Part shown: piece after piece, positions 5,335-25,307 of the stretch | Numbering within the stretch: the stretch's first letter is position 1 | Layout of the letters: every line of letters begins with the position of its first letter | Assembly (NCBI GenBank): GCA_051294905.1 | Contig: CM119373.1 | Location: 186,001-248,000 of the forward strand | Direction: 5' to 3' | Length of the DNA stretch: 62,000 bases | Source: Botryllus schlosseri | Lineage: Eukaryota | Translations under genes and position numbers: made by a program | Notes under the pieces: model-generated | What the model was told of the DNA's origin: nothing | The model's database searches: none | The model's input: only the letters and a program-made list of their open reading frames with translations

Positions 5335-5700
5335 CCATGCGAGAGATGCCTATACTCGAAAGTACGAATTACCACCACGGCACCGGTTGAGCGATCCGTA
5401 TACCGAAAAGTGTTACCGGTCGAGAGATGCCTATACCCAGGCAACGGTTGAGCGATCCCTATGCCGAAAAGGGTTACCGGTTCAACACGAGTTTCGAGGC
5501 ACCGGTTGAGTGATCCCTATACCGAAAAGGGTCACCGGTTCAAGACGAGTTTCGAGGCACCGGTCGAGAGATCCCTATACCGAAAAGGGTTACCGGTCGA
5601 GAGATGCCTATACCAACCCAGGCACCGGTCGGGTGGAAGGGGGGTCTGAAAGGGTCACCGGTTCAGGACGAGTTTCGCGGCACCGGTCGAGTGCACCCAT
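5335..5700. repeat. Subterminal GC-richer tandem array (~59-bp composite unit)
   Basis: GGCACCGGTTGAGCGATCCCTATACCGAAAAGGGTTACCGGT and variants repeat about 6 times. Confidence 0.85.
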
Positions 5701-6861
5701 AAGACACAATGGCGCATCATGACCGATCTATATAACTACTAACATAGCGCGAAGTAATTCATGATTTCGGAAAAATATTAGTTGATAGCTAATTGAAATG
5801 AGATATATTGATTTAAAAGACTCTGTTACAAGTCTTACCACAATGTGATTCCTGCCCAGTGCTATGAATATCAAAGCGGAAATTCGGTGTGGTGCGGGTA
5901 GACGGTGGGAGTAAATCGTCGCCCGACGCTTCAATCAGTGCGCAAAAGTAGCCCTCGGTTGCAAAAAGGTTGTTGAGCCCTGCACTATGGTATGTGCTTT
6001 CAACTGAATTCACAAAACAAATATCTGGCACAGACAATGTTTCTGAAACTTGATGAATTTATTGTAATGAAATTTGCCTTATCAGACTTGAAAAGCAGAA
6101 TAAGGCAAAACACAAATCCGGACATAGTAGGCCGACCATTTACATGACTTGAGACAATTGTGAAGGATGAAAAGACAGTTATTATCATTGAAGCACATTG
6201 AGAATTGGGTTAGCGTAAAACAGAAAGTGGATAACAACAGGCTCTAGTCTCAGGCTGGCTTATAGGATTTCATTGTGGGTTTATTGAAGTTGTCATACTT
6301 CTGATGGTGTAGCAGCTACACTGTAGCTCAACAACTTGCAGCATACTTTTTTTTGGCGCTCATCATCTGTGATGATCGAAGCAGAAGTCGGTGTTGAGTT
6401 CAACTCCTCGTTCAGCAGCGTCATTAACGACTTTGAAACTACTTATAAAATGGCATATTAGTCATTGTCGTCACCCACTATGGTATGTGCTTAAACCTAT
6501 GTATTGAGATTATTATTTCTGTTTCCGAAGAACACCGAGAACGTTTTCTGACAGAATGCATTGTTAGTTGAGAATCAGGACCCCCATTTAAACTCAACTA
6601 CCATGATATTTTGAGAAGAAGCCTAGTATCGTGAGCTTTTGACATTTGCACAATGTACGTAGGTATTTTGGGCGTATTCGCTACTGTGACAACGTCTTGG
6701 ACAGTACAGGCCTGAGTTTTTGTGTTCGGAGGTGGGGGGGGGTCATCTTTCATTCAGACGCATTAAATACTGCAAACCTAGTGCGGATTACGCGAATTGG
6801 AGCTACTATAAAGATGAAATTACATTCATATACAATATGTCTTTGATTAACATTTACTGAG

Positions 6862-7071
6862 TGTGATGACCTTTATTTCACAGAGTATCCAAGGCTTTTA
6901 TTAACTGAAAACGAGCACTATACGCAACACAGCTAGGCCAGCAACTATAAGGTACCAAGAAATGACAAATTAGGAGCGAGACAATATATAGAGGAAAAGA
7001 CAGGTAATCAAGTAATAATTGGTTTAACTAAATATAAAGGACGAGACAATCGCGCACAAGAATTCACCACT
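6862..7071 (-). repeat. 3' LTR of the Gypsy element
   Basis: Matches 9467-9676 except for two internal substitutions and the PPT-side terminal base. Confidence 0.95.
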
Positions 7072-7125
7072 ATCTCCCCGCCCAAAAGGAAATCGTACAA
7101 TACGTAGAAGGAATTGGCAATTGGC

Positions 7126-8610
7126 TTAATATCGAAAACGATCGGGGGCTTTACGGATTCTGGTAGACCGGCGTAAAGGCGGACTATCATTATCTTCTGC
7201 CGTCTGCGGGCTGGCTTGGTCCAATACGACTTCTGGACCAGTAGGTGAGTTACGCTGATCACAAGGATCGGTGTCGTCAAGTTCAACATGTTCCGCAGCG
7301 GCTCTTGAATCGATGTCATCTCGGTTCTTCGGATAGGGCGCTAAATCTTTCACCGAAACTCTCGATTCCGTACCATTGCGATAACGGACAGCGGCATACT
7401 TCGAATTTGCATCCAGCAAATCCACGGGCTCACACAAGGGTTCATCCTTGCTTCTGACGTGCTTGCGTAGCAGAACAGTATCACTTTGAAGCAACCAATC
7501 TGGTAAAGATTGCCCGAACGTAGACTTACGAGGGAATGCGAAAAACCTTTCGTGCGGAGTAACATTAGTTGCAGTGCACAGCAATGAACGCACAGAATGA
7601 AGAGCATCGGGAAGTACCATTTCCCAGTCATCTTCGCGCATTTTCTGAGAGGCCAGCTGAAGCTTAACAGTTCTCCATATCGTTTGGTTCACTCTTTCGC
7701 ACTGAAAGTTTCCAGTCGGGTGATAAGGCGTCGAATGACTGCTCGCAATCCCCCTTTTCGCAAGGAAGGTCTTCACCTCTCTGGAAAGAAACGACATCCC
7801 CCGGTCACTATGGATATAGTTAGGAGCGCCGACAAGTGAGAACAACTGAGACAATCGATTGATTACCGTTCTCGAAGACATATCCCTACAAGGGTAGGCA
7901 AACGGAAAACGACTGAACTCGTCAATGATTATCAAAAGATACTTATTTCTGCCAGCAACGGGGCCTTTGAAATCAATACTCAGTCGCTCCATTGGTTTCG
8001 TAGCTTTAATCAACGAGCACTCCTCCGCCGGCCGAAAATAACGAGGCTTGATTCTGGCGCACTCCATGCACGATAGGCATTCGGCTTTAACGTCATTAAT
8101 CGAAAAGGGCAGATTCTTAGCCCTGACGAAATGCATAAGCCTCCGAACTCCCGGGTGTCCTAAATTAACATGTGCCTCCCGCAATGCTGAAATAGAATGA
8201 ACAGAAAATATCCTTGATATGGCATCAGCAGCAAAATTCTGTATTCCAGGACGATGCTCAATTTCATAATCGAATGCACTAAGTTCAAGTTTCCACAGTA
8301 GAAGCTTTGTGTTTTTAATTTTACTCTGATGACATTTCTTGAAAATGAAGGACAGAGCCTTTTGGTCAGTAACCAACTTGAACCTTTTACCGTGAAGCAG
8401 ATATCCCCATCTGCGTAAACCTTCTATGATAGCTGCAGCTTCCTTCTCAACGGCCGGGTAGTTCTGTTCCGTCTTATTGAGCGTTCTAGACGCGAACGCG
8501 ACTGGCCTACCTTTCTGGCTCAAAACAGCAGCGACAGCAGAGTTTGATGCGTCACACTCCACAACAAACGGAGAATCATCACATATGTATCCCAGGCTGG
8601 CTTCCAGCAA
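7126..8610 (-). CDS. pol: Gypsy pol: RNase H + integrase
   Basis: RNase H motifs ECDAS, VAFASRTL, EKEA, TDQK; integrase HHCC (AHVNLGHPG...CMEC) and DDE core (SIDFKG, HSDRG, ERVN). Confidence 0.95.
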   Translation of the reverse strand: MLEASLGYICDDSPFVVECDASNSAVAAVLSQKGRPVAFASRTLNKTEQNYPAVEKEAAAIIEGLRRWGYLLHGKRFKLVTDQKALSFIFKKCHQSKIKNTKLLLWKLELSAFDYEIEHRPGIQNFAADAISRIFSVHSISALREAHVNLGHPGVRRLMHFVRAKNLPFSINDVKAECLSCMECARIKPRYFRPAEECSLIKATKPMERLSIDFKGPVAGRNKYLLIIIDEFSRFPFAYPCRDMSSRTVINRLSQLFSLVGAPNYIHSDRGMSFLSREVKTFLAKRGIASSHSTPYHPTGNFQCERVNQTIWRTVKLQLASQKMREDDWEMVLPDALHSVRSLLCTATNVTPHERFFAFPRKSTFGQSLPDWLLQSDTVLLRKHVRSKDEPLCEPVDLLDANSKYAAVRYRNGTESRVSVKDLAPYPKNRDDIDSRAAAEHVELDDTDPCDQRNSPTGPEVVLDQASPQTAEDNDSPPLRRSTRIRKAPDRFRY

Positions 8611-8665
8611 ACCATCTTTGAGCTTCCGAAAAGCGTTCGACGCCTCCTGCCCCAGTGGATACCCT

Positions 8666-9436
8666 CTATTTTCTGTTAAGAGGTTTCAGCTTTTCTGAAA
8701 AATTGACAATTAATTTAGAGTAATGCGCAAACATACCAATGCATCGCTTCATTTCTGCAGCATTTCCAGGTGGTTTCATTTCCATGAGCGGTCGCAGATT
8801 TTCAGGATCGGGTCTGATATCACCGTGGGATACGCAGTGGCCTAGAAGTCTGAGCTTTTTCACTGAAAAAACGGATTTTTCTAGGTTCAGTGTTAAATTA
8901 CGCAATTTTGCAGCTTCCATGAAGGCCTTCAGACGTCTTTCGTGTTCCTCCTGTGATCGCCCAATGATCGTGTTGTCATCAAGATATGCCACCGTACCTT
9001 CCAGCTTATTGCGATCGATGAACGTGTCAATGAAACGCTGGAAAGCTGAAACACCATTAGTCACACCAAATGGAACTCTACGAAACTGATACAGCCGCCC
9101 ATTCGCCTCAAACGCTGTTGGCGGCTTGTCGTCATCCGACAAGGGAATCTGATGGTAGGCGGACTTTAAATCAACAGAGCTATAAACGCTACCTTTCGCT
9201 ATCTCGTTGACGACCTCGTCAATTTTCGGCAGAGGATATGCGTCCAGATATGTATAACGGTTTATCGTTTGTGAATAGTCAATAACCATCCGTCTTTTAT
9301 GTCTGTCGCCTTGGGTTACGACAACTTGCGCCCTCCAGGGCGAGGAAGTCCTTTCTATTATCCCTTCCCCCAACATTCTCTCAATCTCGGAATTGATGAA
9401 AGATTTATCCTGGCGGGAATAATACCTCGATTTTGT
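8666..9436 (-). pseudogene. pol: Gypsy pol: reverse transcriptase, frameshifted relative to RNase H-IN
   Basis: SSPWRAQ, IDYSQTIN, YPLPKID, DLKSAYHQIP, PFGVTNG, YLDD. The frame is open upstream to ~9436 (TKSRYYS...) and stops at 8666, out of frame with the downstream ORF. Confidence 0.93.
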
Positions 9437-9466
9437 TGTATAGTGCTCGTTTTCAGTTAATAAAAT

Positions 9467-9676
9467 TGTGATGACCTTTATTTCACAGAGTAACCAAGGC
9501 TTTTACTAACTGAAAACGAGCACTATACGCAACACAGCTAGGCCAGCAACTATAAGGTACCAAGAAATGACAAATTAGGAGCGAGACAATATATAGAGGA
9601 AAAGACAGGTAATCAAGTAATAATTGGTTTAACTAAATATAAAGGACGAGACAATCGCGCACAAGAATTCACCACA
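9467..9676 (-). repeat. 5' LTR of the Gypsy element
   Basis: On minus begins TGTGGTG and ends CATCACA; contains a TATA-like CTATATAT and an AATAAA. Confidence 0.95.
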
Positions 9677-10746
9677 CTGAGTTTAAACAAGCTGAAAATG
9701 CCTGTATTCGTTCATACATAGGCCTACCACGCGGCTACCTATGCCAAATACGGGAAGGTGAAACACATTTGGAATGTATAGGAATGTAAGTATGTTCAAT
9801 CGTCAAAAAGATAATTCAACCTGATATTTCCCAGCTCTACTCAGCCGTTTTCTACCGCAAACTTCACTTAAGCTGCAAGCCAGGAATGGTGAATCGTCGG
9901 TAGTAAGGAGAATTGGCCCGTGGGTCTTTGGGGGCTTTGCGCACAAGGAAGATCGCGATGAAAATCACCAAAATCGCTTTTAGAAGTGTTTTTATGCACT
10001 AAACTATCATTTGCAATTACGCAAAACAAGATTTCAAAAAAATGCCCAAATCTGGATAACCCTAATGGTCAGAGTAGTAGTCGTCCTTACTACCTTTCAA
10101 GTGTAAGTAGAAAGTGAAGTTCGGAAAAGTAGGCTATTGGGGTGAGTAGTTTAAAAAAATGGTCGCAGTCGAAATGTCGACACTTATGGCATGAAGTCGT
10201 AGGTGCATGCTTCTCAACAGAGATGGTTAGAATAGTAGTTGTTTTCAGCACTCACGTAGAAGTATTTGTAGTGTCATCAATGGAGTTAAGCACTCACGTA
10301 GAAGAATTTGTAGTGTCATCAATGGAGTAGAAGTAGTAGTAACGCCATGTATTTCCACTCTGGTACAAGCAGTGATTTACAAGGCTTGTCAAAACTACTT
10401 TATGTGAAAGTATAAATTCTGAAAAGTACTCAATATCTACTTTGGATGCTTCCAGGGTTGTAACCAAGTCACAAGTCAATCTCACTCGAGTCAAATCGAG
10501 TCATTTTCAGTTCACCACCGAGTCAAGTCCAAGTCGGCGAGTATAGGGTCGAGTCCGAGTCATGGTATTATGACTCGAGTCCAATTCATTGCGTTGACTG
10601 CTCAGTTTCCAGTTGAATTCTTGTTTAATCCACTTTTTATAACTCTGTTCGGTGATATCAACGGTTCGCATTTATAATATAGGCTACTAAATTTTCTCAT
10701 CTTCAACAGTTTCGAGTCGCATTTTTAAGTACCGCTACCATTAGAT

Positions 10747-12627
10747 CAGTGGTTCTTAACCTTTTTTCCTCCAGCGCCCCCTTTCAAAGATTATCGGGCT
10801 CCAGCGCCCCCCAACCTCATATTGTAAGGAATGTACCAAAGACAATGAGTAAGAGGGAGGGCCGTAACAGAACTTCGTCAACTCCCCTAAAAACGATTGC
10901 CTTGCGCACCCATAGCGTGATACACCAAACTTCTGAGGGCTTCGCCCCAAGAACCCCGTAACGTGATTTCGATGGTCAGCAAAGTTTGTGTGGCCTAGGC
11001 CCGGTCGCATTAGGTGCCAAAATATTCTATAATCCATAAATGGATAGGTGGTAATCACATATATATGTCGCTATAAACTTTTTATCCTCTCAGCCCACGT
11101 AATCAGATTTACTAGTAGCGCTGAGCTGTTGTATTGGAAAATAAACGGCACGTAATTAATAATAAATATATTCGGGCGTGCCCGTAGGTACAAATAATTC
11201 GTTACCAGAGCCGTAACAGCACTTCGTCAGCCCCCAAAGAAACGTTGGTCTTGAGTCCCCCGTAGGGAGATAAACCAAACTTCCGGGGGGCTCTACCCTC
11301 AGAGCCCCCTTCGGCTATCCGCTATTTATTGATACTGGTCATCTACATTGGGTGAGCATTTACTGAGCCAGCTATTCTCGCCTAGACGCGCAAAGCGCGA
11401 AAAATTTCAATAATTATTGATTGAATTGGTCAATATGATCGGGAAGTGCATATATATTATTATCAATTTTTATCCTTTCTCTGCTCACGTAAACAGATTT
11501 ACCGCTAGAGCTGAGTGATGTGTGATTGAAAGGGTAGGATCCCTCAATAATAATTATACATCTTAGGGCGTATACCCGTTGGCAGGAACGAAACGACACT
11601 TCGTCAGGCCCGCCGAAACAACTTTGGTCTTGGCCTTCCATAGGGTGATAAACCGACCGCCCCCCATCACGTTGTTCGCTTTTGCCACGAAATCAGCTGT
11701 ACTGTTTAGCGAGACAGTGCGAAGCGCGAAAATTTTCGATAATTCACGATAAAATCGGTCAATAAGATCTGGAATTGCATATAGGCTATATTGCTATCAA
11801 TTTCTTGTCCTCTCCGCTCACGTTACCAGATTTACCGGTAGAGCTGAGTGAGGTGCAATGTTCCCTCTAAGCTGCACACGTGCGCAGTGCTGACACGGTC
11901 TCTGCGCACAAAAAATCTACGTTGCGCACAACAAATCTGAAGTTATGACCTTATTTTAGTCGTTACGCACTGTTGTCCAAGGGTCTGCGCAGTGAGTTTG
12001 TGAGTGTGCGCAGACTCGTCAAAACGTAGAGGGAACATTGTGAGGTGTCTTGGAAACTGTAGGGCCCGTAAGTAATAATTAAACATAGCCGGGTGGGCGG
12101 ACCCGTTGATATGACTTCGTAGCATGATGTTATTTCGTGACCTCCTGTCTGCTATATCAAAAAATATAGAATCGCCCAACAGGGATATCGCCCAACGGGT
12201 ATATCTAGTTCTACATATCCCTGTCGTCCAATCGTACTAAACTAAAAGACGTACACGCTTTCAAATTGGTATTTCTTCACTGATGGCATATTATTTTTTC
12301 CTGCCAGATGGAATTCGTCTTCTGAGGTTCAGATTGCCAAGACAGGAACATTCGGTGCCAGTCATTTAGGCGCCTATGGACAATTAAATCTTTATGTATT
12401 TTGTAGGCTATAAATAACGAAGTTTTCGGTGTAAATTCGCTCTGAATATACTCATTAAGGATATGTCCTACTACCACATCATCTACTGTGATGCTATTTT
12501 TCTCCAGCGCCTCCCATACCGCCCCCCTGAGCCCAGCGCCCCCCATATCGCCCCCTTAGCGTTTCCGCCCCCTTCAAAATCGCCAGCGCCCCCTGGGGGG
12601 CGCTGGAGGCAAGGTTAAGAACCACTG
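10747..12627. mobile_element. Non-autonomous hAT (Buster/Charlie-like) element
   Basis: TIR CAGTGGTTCTTAACC / GGTTAAGAACCACTG; perfect 8-bp TSD CATTAGAT. Confidence 0.92.
11856..12040. mobile_element. Small MITE
   Basis: TIR CAATGTTCCCTCTA / TAGAGGGAACATTG with a TGAGGTG duplication; a related copy lies at ~21617-21808. Confidence 0.85.
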
Positions 12628-13922
12628 CATTAGATGAAATACCAATAGAGTGGTTACTTTACTATTTTTCGAAATTACAATGTGATATAGGTTTTGGTCG
12701 TCCGGGTCTTGAGTCATATGACTTGGTCTGAGTCATTACATGAATTGACTCGAGTCGAGTCATTTCCGTATTTTGAGAAAATGACTTGAGTCAAGTCGAG
12801 TCATCAGAAAATCGCAACTCGAGTCATAACAATGACATCCCTGGGTGTTTCCACAAGTTAATTTGATCGGCATGTTGCATAACTACGTATCGCTAGTTCA
12901 GAAGCTCTCCACACTCAAGTAGACGTAGTACACTGTAAAAAATCTGGTAGATTTACTGGGAAATCTCTGTAAATTTTACCACGAATTACCGGACGCAGCC
13001 ACTTACTGCGCGTAGCTTGTCATTTTACATTTTGATATGTAATATTACCTTAATATAGCTGTAAAGTAAGTTACCAGAATTTCTTCGCAAAATTACTGAC
13101 AGTTACTCGTTACTGCAGTTTACCGGGCTATTGGCAAAATTGATTAGCATCAAAATCGCTGCAGCCAGTGTATACGTAGAACTGAATGTTACTGATATAT
13201 CATTCTAGAGGTGATTTGACCTGATTGAACCTCGTTTGCGAGACTGGGGTCTGTCACACCGAAATTGTTGGCCCTAGTATCAATTTAAGCTTAGTAGGGT
13301 ACAAGAAATAACTGACAATCGTAGCTAATGTGGTATACCGTAGCCATATTATATTATAAGGCAATGGCTGTACGGCAACTACGGCCAGTCTCGCTGGTTA
13401 CATTCGTTGTCACGGATAAGGCTGATAAGTTAGAAAATTAGTTCAAAATGTATAATATTGCTCGGGGAAACTAGAAATATCAGCACCGCATGCTCAGCAG
13501 ACCATTTGTTAATGGCGGACAAGGCGACCTGTAATAGGTTACATTAGGTGACTGCTTTTTCTGAGATTCGTAGTAAACAACCAACGCACAACTGTGACAT
13601 CACAAGCAACGTCTGGTTAGGTAAGTACAGTAAGTAGTGAACAACACATAGAATATATATCAATTTATACGAAATTAGATGAAAAAAGGGACTATGTTAG
13701 GGTTACCATATTTTGGTGAAGCAAATTCCGGACACTCTTTAGCGCCCACTAGCGGGTTTTAAAATGAGTTGTAACTCATTGACCGTCAATATGACGTCAC
13801 ACTGGAAAAGCATTGTCCATCGACTGTATTGTATACACTATACAAATACAGTGATGGAGTGGAACATAGGTCATGAATTGGGCCTTCTGTAATGTGAGCT
13901 CTGGTGATTGCTACTTGCTAGG

Positions 13923-24245: not shown

Positions 24246-25307
24246 ATGAAAGGAGATCAGTGCAGGATTATGGAATTGCTGGAGTTGTTGGAATTTACTG
24301 ACGATGATGATGAACAGTACAGACTGCCAAGAAAGTATCTCGCAGATGTTCAGAACCCCTTCGAAAGGTATTCGAACAACGAGTTCAGACTGCGATTCCG
24401 GTTTTCAAAAGACGCAACTCACTATCTTTTTGGGCTGTTGAAAGATGATGAAGAATTGACCTGCAGAGATCATGCTCTTCCGCCAATACTACAACTAACT
24501 TGCGCCTTACGGTTTTTCGCGGATGGCCATTTTCAACAGACTGATGGTGACCTAGCTGGTATAAGCAAAGTAACTGCTCACAGAAGCATTCACAAAATTA
24601 CCCGTGCCATATGCCGCAAGACGCTCCTGTTTTTGAATTTTCCTACTGACCTCGCCAAAGTAAAGCATGAATTTTATGACATTGCAGGCTTCCCAAACGT
24701 TGTTGGAGCAATCGATTGTACTCATCTACCCATAATATCCCCTGGCGGTGATAATGCAGAGGTGTTCCGGAACAGAAAAGGTTATTTTTCATTGAACGTT
24801 CAAATGATATGTGATGCACAGCGAGTCGTAACAAACATTGTCACACGTTGGTATGGATCTTGTCACGATTCAAGAATCTTTGACAATTCGGTGATCCGTG
24901 ATCGATTCGAAGATAATCAAATCGATGGATATTTGTTTGGGGATAATGGATATCCACTGAGGAGCTACTTACTTACACCACTATTATCACCAAGAACATC
25001 GGCCGAAAAAAAGTATAATCACGCTCATATTGTAACCCGCTCTCGCATAGAGCAGTGCTTTGGCATGCTGAAAAAAAGATTTTTCGCCTTAGCTATACCG
25101 ATGAGGACCAAGCTCAGCAATTCCACGAATATCGTCGTGGCCATAACCTGCCTTCATAATCTGGCAATTCGGACACGACAGATGACTGATGAAACGGAAG
25201 TTGATGATGTATTCGAACCAGATGCTTCAGACCACCCTCATGTCGCATCGACTCCTTCTGGACAATCCGAGCGACAAAGCATAATTTTGAGATACTTTTC
25301 AAACTAA
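24246..25307 (+). CDS. Harbinger transposase (HARBI1-like DDE nuclease)
   Basis: 353-aa uninterrupted ORF with FRLRFRFSK, GAIDCTH, NRKGYFSLNVQ, HDSRIF, GDNGYP and RSRIEQCFGMLKKRF. Confidence 0.95.
   Translation: MKGDQCRIMELLELLEFTDDDDEQYRLPRKYLADVQNPFERYSNNEFRLRFRFSKDATHYLFGLLKDDEELTCRDHALPPILQLTCALRFFADGHFQQTDGDLAGISKVTAHRSIHKITRAICRKTLLFLNFPTDLAKVKHEFYDIAGFPNVVGAIDCTHLPIISPGGDNAEVFRNRKGYFSLNVQMICDAQRVVTNIVTRWYGSCHDSRIFDNSVIRDRFEDNQIDGYLFGDNGYPLRSYLLTPLLSPRTSAEKKYNHAHIVTRSRIEQCFGMLKKRFFALAIPMRTKLSNSTNIVVAITCLHNLAIRTRQMTDETEVDDVFEPDASDHPHVASTPSGQSERQSIILRYFSN

What the first reader, a model, noticed from the sequence alone, without database searches (positions are those of the whole stretch)
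9438..9528. Gypsy element with an LTR-complementary 28-nt 'PBS': candidate tRNA-independent self-priming hairpin
Seen: one base after the 5' LTR ends (element orientation) there is no TGG-starting tRNA primer-binding site. Instead TTTTATTAACTGAAAACGAGCACTATAC (9465-9438) is the inverted complement of LTR positions 9501-9528 (27/28 match) and of the 3' LTR copy 6896-6923 (28/28). The transcript could fold a 28-bp stem with a 35-nt loop exactly at the priming position, and the stem overlaps the TTAATAAAA segment of the LTR. Known: fission-yeast Tf1 self-primes using ~11 nt from the 5' end of its own mRNA. Inference: this is a longer, LTR-internal variant of self-priming in an animal Gypsy lineage, possibly also masking a 5' poly(A) signal. 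The better match to the distant LTR suggests the segment was inherited from the parent element rather than made by local fold-back.
Basis: partly seen in the sequence, partly recalled or inferred. Interest (0 to 1): 0.8.

Follow-up and report, generated by a model that had tools for sequence, protein, structure and literature searches.

The report
Self-priming signature in invertebrate Gypsy clade
A broken jumping gene and its relatives carry, where a host tRNA normally lands to start DNA copying, a short sequence that pairs with the element's own terminal repeat, so this animal lineage most likely primes its own copying as yeast Tf1 does; the unusually long 28-base match is a copying accident private to this one copy.

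Summary
The 28-nt inverted match is real but composite. The first 16 nt are the family's normal primer-binding site: 16 of 16 other 5' junctions read carry them (13 perfect), then the start of the ORF. The last 12 nt occur in this copy only and fill a 1,303-nt gag-protease deletion. In 24 of 24 related elements whose LTR end was fixed by the LTR pair, the bases after the 5' LTR pair with their own LTR at 11-12 of 12 positions; 0 of 24 3'-LTR flanks do; none starts with TGG. Letters change on both sides together. The fully kept core is 11-12 bp, Tf1's length, and starts at an initiator-like motif. No chromodomain was found, so this looks like Tf1-type self-priming outside Tf1/sushi. Two more copies show the same over-extension into U3. 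Start site, cleavage and primer are not shown; RNA reads gave no start site. Ten paper searches found no report for this clade; Repbase, GyDB and the key papers were not available. The scan noted like signatures before in other lineages (BEL/Pao in this genome, diatom copia, a protist Gypsy).

The parts
9677..9681 (-). left target-site duplication CTCAG
   Evidence: same 5 nt at 6857-6861
9467..9676 (-). 5' LTR, 210 bp, TG...CA
9501..9511 (-). candidate 11-nt self-primer; begins at the A of an initiator-like TCAGTT and holds the poly(A)-type hexamer (here with an A>G change at 9506)
   Evidence: positions 1-11 paired in 173 of 176 cells in 16 families; start-site role inferred, not shown
9512..9516 (-). 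five further LTR bases that pair with the leader in all family copies (16-bp family stem)
9517..9528 (-). LTR bases that served as template for the 12-nt insertion
9474..9500 (-). short inner stem GCCTT (9500-9496) / AAGGT (9478-9474) stacked on the primer end; second AATAAA at 9482-9477
   Evidence: predicted folds; motif RCC follows the primer in 25 of 28 elements; weak covariation
9466..9466 (-). 1-nt spacer between LTR end and primer site
   Evidence: A in 26 of 28, G in 2
9450..9465 (-). family primer-binding site, 16 nt complementary to own LTR
9438..9449 (-). copy-specific 12-nt extension of the LTR complement, replacing 1,303 nt (leader, gag, protease)
8669..9437 (-). reverse transcriptase part of pol (frame break near 8666-8685)
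   Evidence: Pfam RVT_1 8e-26; ORF list
7126..8685 (-). RNase H and integrase part of pol, no chromodomain
7073..7083 (-). polypurine tract
   Evidence: sequence; same motif before 3' LTRs of family copies
6862..7071 (-). 3' LTR (first base changed T>A)
6857..6861 (-). right target-site duplication

Best explanation
This is a deleted copy of a recently amplified, single-ORF, chromodomain-less Ty3/Gypsy family whose whole clade primes reverse transcription with its own RNA. SHOWN: the first 11-12 nt after the 5' LTR are the complement of a segment 21-65 nt upstream inside the same element's LTR, in every readable relative, with matched changes on both sides and no tRNA-type TGG. INFERRED from Tf1: the transcript starts at or just before the initiator-like A (9511), its first ~11 nt fold onto the primer site, the element's RNase H cuts at the conserved AAA|RCC step, and the freed 3' end primes minus-strand synthesis across the LTR end. 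My odds for the start at that A are about 0.6, against 0.4 for a start some bases upstream with a longer primer. INFERRED for the 28-mer: a nascent DNA end carrying the primer-site copy paired with its complement in the LTR, was extended 12 nt into upstream LTR sequence, and rejoined at a partial microhomology at the start of RT, deleting 1.3 kb (during reverse transcription about 0.7, by repair after insertion about 0.25). Such over-extensions recur and may explain why pairing tapers from 12 to about 18 bp among families.
For: Family: 16 of 16 other 5' junctions have the 16-nt complement (13 perfect, 3 with one change); 0 of 13 3'/solo LTR flanks do; 18 genome matches to the normal junction against 1 for the 28-nt junction (its second hit is an LTR's own antisense strand). 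Relatives: 24 of 24 LTR-pair-defined elements pair at >=11 of 12, 0 of 24 3' flanks (means 11.8 vs 7.5), 0 of 24 with TGG. 16 families: 173 of 176 core pairs; best of 100,000 cross-family permutations 155. Matched double changes between close relatives: L052/L053, L048/L133, L083/L085, and L041 vs this family. Metagenome loci: 13 of 35 testable loci hit, all 1,281-1,437 nt upstream of RT; controls 2 hits in 94 kb and 3 in 771 kb shuffled. Over-extension elsewhere: in a sister family 21 copies have the 12-bp form, while L151 pairs at 24 of the first 25 and rejoins the normal leader, and L152 has 17 bp, a short duplication and a ~330-nt deletion. Tf1 mechanism: first 11 bases pair with the PBS, RNase H cuts between 11 and 12 (PMC7175516, passage).
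Against: No start site, cleavage or primer was observed: 15, 131 and 50 raw RNA reads in three runs gave no pile-up of ends. Pairing continues past position 11 more than chance (positions 12-17: 119 of 168, permutation max 92; position 12 is paired in 27 of 28), which a start exactly at the A does not explain without the over-extension idea. A short RNA starting at 9512-equivalent folds only weakly better than shuffles (z -1.96, 9 of 200; three relatives z -2.3, -1.2, -0.7). Permutations ignore relatedness, and 12 of the 28 rows were found by the pairing scan itself. 22 of 35 metagenome loci had no strict hit; 5 of them pair with one mismatch, and of 9 inspected further none gave a clean duplex at the expected place (truncated, rearranged or displaced). 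The window junction lacks two bases expected from the 6-nt microhomology. Ty1 and Ty3 are said to inherit the PBS strictly rather than copy the primer (PMC7472051, passage), so primer-templated renewal of the PBS cannot be assumed. L151 could be an older long-stem state rather than an event.
Confidence: 0.85

Rival explanations
1. The hairpin only hides the 5' poly(A) signal (or regulates translation); priming is done by some other RNA.
For: AATAAA or ATTAAA lies in the paired segment in 22 of 28 elements; the stem can form only at the 5' end of the RNA.
Against: 6 of 28 lack the hexamer there; L139 has it only in the loop; this family and L081 have a second one outside the duplex. The complement always starts 1-2 nt after the LTR's CA, the place of a primer site, although loop length varies from 21 to 65 nt. 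No other primer site was seen (0 of 24 TGG).
Confidence: 0.05
2. The primer site pairs with the 3' copy of U3-R in the genomic RNA (end-to-end circularisation, or priming by the 3' end or a second RNA), which would give the pairs beyond position 11 a function in RNA.
For: Positions 12-17 pair above chance; positions 13-24 give stronger own than cross duplexes (p 0.0008). The 3' end of the RNA holds these U3 bases whatever the start site.
Against: Pairing beyond position 18 is at background (p 0.29 and 0.20); some families need only 11-12 bp (L113, L037). The one system tested by experiment uses the 5' end (PMC7175516).
Confidence: 0.07
3. tRNA, half-tRNA or spliced-leader RNA is the primer and the LTR match is incidental.
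For: None found; most LTR elements use tRNA (PMC6317226, passage).
Against: 21 different 11-mers among 28 elements, each matching its own LTR; 12 different among the 16 unbiased families; no TGG. None of 63 scored tRNA genes overlaps the 100 listed (of 136) genome matches to the 14-nt primer core (read by eye; weak, since only 63 of 36,083 candidates were scored).
Confidence: 0.02
4. The full 28-nt stem is a functional, inherited long variant.
For: In intact copies a 7-bp helix with two G-U pairs can form in the same register beyond a 4x4 loop; L151 has 24 of 25 pairs.
Against: One copy in the assembly, joined directly to RT with loss of the start codon, gag and protease; 18 normal junctions.
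Confidence: 0.04

Closest known systems
Tf1/Tf2 (S. pombe), Tj1, Tosmo/Tcry and the Tf1/sushi group of chromoviruses (PMC7175516, PMC10085805, PMC4600332, PMC5341516; passages read)
   Same: Primer site right after the 5' LTR is complementary to a segment in the element's own LTR; core length 11-12 nt; Ty3/Gypsy domain order; a second short duplex next to the central one is predicted.
   Different: No chromodomain in 5 of 5 long proteins scanned or among the Pfam lists of 120 best relatives; hosts of named relatives are invertebrates; the paired segment usually is the poly(A)-type hexamer; pairing runs 11-19 bp; the predicted inner stem starts at the primer's 3' end rather than at the PBS edge, and a third 'pretzel' duplex was not demonstrated.
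Predicted self-priming in plant Tcn1 (Gypsy) and TAR (Copia) lineages (PMC6317226, passages)
   Same: Inference from LTR-complementary primer sites without experiment.
   Different: Different lineages and hosts; that survey names only Tf1/sushi among non-plant self-primers.
Cigr-1 and CsRN1 clades of invertebrate Gypsy elements
   Same: A Ciona intestinalis protein is 58% identical in RT and nests among self-pairing elements; a short-LTR, single-ORF layout for Cigr-1 is recalled, from no call. The LTR start TGTGGTG fits the CsRN1 model's TGTGGYG (PMC3601003, Table 3 passage).
   Different: No reference sequence of either clade could be fetched, so the clade name is open; CsRN1's tRNA priming is recalled, not checked.
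Retroviral deletions with insertions and fold-back self-priming of strong-stop DNA (PMC3187697, PMC6088434; passages)
   Same: Template switches during reverse transcription give deletions with short templated insertions; strong-stop DNA ends can fold back and be extended.
   Different: Described there for HIV minus-strand DNA and retroviral vectors; here the fold-back partner is built in by the self-priming design.

Membership tests
Ty3/Gypsy LTR retrotransposon | Domain order protease-RT-RNase H-integrase | tested here: met
Ty3/Gypsy LTR retrotransposon | Direct LTRs TG...CA, target duplication, polypurine tract | tested here: met
Self-priming (works like Tf1) | Primer site complementary to own LTR, not to a tRNA end | tested here: met
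Self-priming (works like Tf1) | [quoted passage not shown] | tested here: inconclusive
   too few reads, no end pile-up; initiator-like motif only
Self-priming (works like Tf1) | RNase H cleavage frees the primer | not testable with these tools
   RNase H domain present; conserved AAA|RCC step
Self-priming (works like Tf1) | Three-duplex 'pretzel' RNA | tested here: inconclusive
   central duplex yes; inner stem mean 3.75 bp vs 2.44 shuffled but 3.44 cross-family; third duplex not searched systematically
Tf1/sushi chromovirus group | Chromodomain at integrase C-terminus (usual, PMC10085805) | tested here: not met
Tf1/sushi chromovirus group | RT groups with Tf1/sushi in a tree | not testable with these tools
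   no Tf1 or sushi sequence available; the tree has no outgroup
tRNA-primed Gypsy | TGG-starting site within a few bases of the 5' LTR | tested here: not met
   0 of 24
tRNA-primed Gypsy | Match to an internal tRNA fragment | tested here: inconclusive
   searches cover only 63 tRNA genes and 100 of 136 matches
Cigr-1 clade | RT groups with Cigr-1 | not testable with these tools
   no reference sequence; P0110 (Ciona) is not labelled Cigr-1

The most novel reading that the evidence does not exclude
A widespread invertebrate Gypsy clade evolved self-priming independently of the chromoviruses, with one 11-nt word serving as initiator, poly(A) signal and primer; because the primer-site copy can always fold back on its own LTR, reverse transcriptase repeatedly over-extends it into U3, which renews the longer stems and makes the primer site a deletion hot spot, leaving fossils of the mechanism such as this 28-mer. 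If the start site proves to lie upstream, the primer would be cut from an RNA with a 5' overhang, unlike Tf1.
Probability: 0.35. Interest if true: 0.7.

Novelty: new variant of a known kind. Interest (0 to 1): 0.55.

Why it matters
Self-priming is proven only in Tf1 and, in the papers I could read, is attributed in animals only to the vertebrate sushi group. A large non-chromovirus clade of invertebrates that does the same would mean that tRNA-free priming is common and arose or persisted in several branches, which bears on the open question whether hairpin priming is ancestral (raised in PMC3601003). Such elements would also lack the target of tRNA-fragment silencing (PMC7472051). The families here are young (LTR pairs often 100% identical), so start-site and primer mapping in tissue is feasible.

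Tried and rejected
Viral contigs: 56 pattern hits, none a relative. RNA evidence: no holder on record as RNA was listed; laying three raw RNA runs and one contig set gave no start or end pile-up; 3 reads with an A-run just past the LTR end and 5 reads beginning in the polypurine tract are too few to use. ESM Atlas gave only generic RT clusters. Solved structures: nearest is Ty3 RT, no clade information. A TATA box at a fixed distance from the candidate start was not evident by eye. A 2-nt spacer in L092 was dropped as evidence because L103 of the same family has the usual base. Distal pairing beyond position 18 is not above chance. The mafft step failed (empty input) and its 'window' row was mis-indexed; neither is used. 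Rows left out: L036 (deleted inside the primer site), L147 (one-base deletion there), L035 and L049 (tandem or interrupted LTR), L033 and L143 (no LTR pair found; both pair), L031, L032, L046, L135, L149 (5' end not readable), and four metagenome repeats that were not LTR ends (L053, L055, L108, L111). L069 was left out as a near-duplicate of L052. Of 150 RT matches, 30 non-family elements were fetched. Of 80 metagenome loci, 45 had under 1,400 nt upstream of RT and were not scanned (4 of them viewed, uninformative). Papers not held: Levin 1995, Lin & Levin 1997, Atwood-Moore 2006, Esnault & Levin 2015, and one PubMed id tried for the Ciona survey. PMC2774666 had no passage on priming. The supplements of PMC6238403 were listed but not read; they and the supplements of PMC13524379 may name this clade or its primer type.

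Full report
OBSERVATION. The window holds a Ty3/Gypsy element on the - strand: 5' LTR 9676-9467, 3' LTR 7071-6862 (210 bp, 3 differences), target duplication CTCAG, a polypurine tract before the 3' LTR, and RT, RNase H and integrase domains with a frame break near 8666-8685. One base after the LTR's terminal CA begins a 28-mer that is the inverted complement of 9501-9528 (27 of 28) and of 6896-6923 (28 of 28). The RNA folds this stem at z = -6.8.

THE 28-MER IS TWO THINGS. A search of the genome with the LTR-junction region gave 79 matches, of which 30 loci were fetched. Besides the window, 16 are 5' junctions; all 16 read CA, A, then the same 16-nt LTR complement (13 perfect, 3 with one change), followed by a short leader and, in 15 of 16, the ATG of a long ORF; the 13 3' or solo LTR ends have unrelated flanks. 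Pattern searches found 18 normal junctions and one 28-nt junction, the window's (the other hit there is an LTR read on its antisense strand). Against undeleted copies the window lacks 1,303 nt (leader, gag, protease) and has 12 other bases in their place; these continue the LTR complement, and the right breakpoint sits at a stretch where LTR complement and RT share six bases, though the junction itself lacks two of them. The lone mismatch to the near LTR (9506) lies in the inherited 16 nt; it says nothing on the origin of the 12.

THE FAMILY-LEVEL FEATURE IS CLADE-WIDE. The RT search listed 150 matches; I fetched 30 from other families, 47-66% identical. A metagenome scan gave 80 loci from other hosts. 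Where both LTRs fixed the LTR end independently of any pairing, 24 of 24 elements (19 own genome, 5 metagenome) pair at 11 or 12 of the first 12 positions with a segment of their own LTR, 0 of 24 3'-LTR flanks do, and none has TGG (rows left out are listed under Tried and rejected). Taking one element per family (16 families), 173 of 176 cells at positions 1-11 are Watson-Crick; 100,000 cross-family permutations reach at most 155; 13 of 16 are perfect with their own LTR against 11 of 240 cross pairs. Adding 12 elements found by the pairing scan itself gives 302 of 308 and 21 different 11-mers among 28 (that set is biased by its selection). Close relatives differ by matched double changes (L052/L053, L048/L133, L083/L085). 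In the metagenome loci with enough upstream DNA, 13 of 35 gave a strict hit, all 1,281-1,437 nt upstream of RT; controls gave 2 hits in 94 kb and 3 in 771 kb of shuffles. Of the 22 misses, 5 pair with one mismatch at the expected place (L069, L075, L083, L126, L127). Nine were inspected: three are rearranged, two keep a family-type primer site beside a broken LTR, one starts too close to the contig end, two show a 13-nt complement displaced by 9 nt, one is unreadable; none showed CA followed by TGG at an LTR-end-like place. Self-pairing elements are spread over the RT tree and interleave with named proteins from Styela, Ciona, Xenia, Trichinella and Armadillidium, whose own primer sites I could not read. 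The nearest named relatives are ascidian, which fits earlier notes calling this a sea-squirt-type genome; I did not test that.

ANATOMY. Counting from the base that pairs with the first primer-site position, positions 1-12 are almost always paired, 13-17 in 50-75%, 18 onward near background. Positions 11-9 read AGT in 18 of 28 and TGT in 6, mostly after a pyrimidine, like the initiator TCAKTY that PMC3601003 (passage) calls common in LTRs; in this family it is TCAGTT with the A at 9511. The segment ends in AAA (27 of 28 in AA) and is followed by RCC in 25 of 28. A poly(A)-type hexamer lies inside it in 22 of 28. A 3-6-bp inner stem from RCC to a GGT near the LTR end is predicted for many families (mean 3.75 bp, 2.44 with shuffled tails, but 3.44 across families, so it is conserved sequence more than shown covariation).

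MECHANISM. [quoted passage not shown] The geometry here is the same, with an initiator-like A exactly 11 bases from the end of the duplex. I infer self-priming (0.85). Not shown: start site, cut, primer; three raw RNA runs gave 15, 131 and 50 reads and no end pile-up. The pairs beyond position 11 are real (119 of 168 at 12-17; permutation maximum 92) and need an account: a start some bases upstream, pairing with the RNA's 3' U3-R, or repeated over-extension. The last has direct support. In a sister family 21 copies have the 12-bp form, but two diverged relatives do not: L151 pairs at 24 of the first 25 positions and then resumes the normal leader, and L152 has 17 bp, a short repeat of the primer site and a jump of about 330 nt into gag. 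L036 is deleted from inside the primer site to integrase. With the window that makes three deletions anchored at the primer site, two with added LTR complement. A DNA end that carries the primer-site copy always has its complement 20-65 nt away on the same strand, so fold-back extension, known for HIV strong-stop DNA (PMC6088434, passages), followed by a template switch (deletions with insertions, PMC3187697, passage) is the simplest route; read-through of a longer primer gives the same product, and repair after insertion cannot be excluded. L151 may instead be an older long-stem state.

RIVALS. Poly(A) masking alone is unlikely: 6 of 28 lack the hexamer in the duplex, L139 has it only in the loop, and this family has a second one at 9482-9477. 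A host RNA primer cannot follow 21 different sequences that each track their own LTR; the direct tRNA comparison was partial.

COMPARISON AND NOVELTY. It works like Tf1, but membership of the Tf1/sushi chromoviruses is not supported: no chromodomain in the window, in 5 of 5 long proteins or in the Pfam lists of the 120 best relatives; a tree test was not possible. PMC10085805 and PMC6317226 (passages) tie self-priming to Tf1/sushi, with predictions for plant Tcn1 and TAR; PMC5006619 (passage) adds an unexplained Skipper case. Ten full-text searches found no paper on self-priming in an invertebrate non-chromovirus Gypsy clade; Repbase, GyDB, Butler 2001 and the original Ciona survey were out of reach, so an earlier remark there is quite possible. 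All papers cited were seen as search passages only; PMC13524379, PMC5443660 and PMC4600332 were read the same way and added nothing on this clade. The scan's own notes report like signatures in BEL/Pao elements of this genome, diatom copia elements and a protist Gypsy; these are unchecked and concern other lineages; look-ups for this clade gave nothing.

VERDICT. Real feature, partly misread: a clade-wide Tf1-type self-priming signature of 11-12 bp (16 in this family) in a chromodomain-less invertebrate Gypsy lineage, plus a copy-specific 12-nt over-extension at a deletion. New variant of a known kind; interest 0.55.

Noticed in passing
L037, L041, L043, L048, L033 (RT, alignment A1 columns 149-152): Five of nine aligned RTs read YLDN instead of YLDD, four of them in elements with 100% identical LTRs and long open frames, so apparently recently mobile.
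   Followed up: no
L137:300-385: A 54%-identical family pairs in a shifted register: 2-nt spacer, 13 bp, hexamer in the middle of the duplex, no RCC after it.
   Followed up: partly
L100 and L105, just upstream of the ORF: A 13-nt LTR complement starts 9 nt further from the LTR end than in other families (read by eye); possibly a deletion in the LTR.
   Followed up: no
window 9506; L015, L011, L012, L039, L134, L145: Several single-copy changes in the duplex are A>G, some giving G-U pairs; ordinary transitions or RNA editing not told apart.
   Followed up: no
L005:1502 (run X23): Five reads begin with an adapter-like end inside the polypurine tract just before an LTR; three reads of X22 have an A-run 3 nt past an LTR end.
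   Followed up: no
L035 (G000:C10:3650494-3657132): Two copies of one family lie in tandem about 5.9 kb and 4 kb repeats apart, sharing LTR sequence.
   Followed up: no
window 24246-25307 (+): Open frame of 353 aa with a DDE_Tnp_4 domain (E 4e-30), Harbinger-like transposase by recalled family assignment.
   Followed up: partly
window 5379-5698, 10851-11848, 10481-10590 and 12735-12804, 38-465: 58-nt tandem array; three to four diverged repeats spaced 330-390 nt; GACTCGAGTC-rich repeats in opposite orientation flanking them (possible non-autonomous DNA transposon); 41-nt array at the window start.
   Followed up: no
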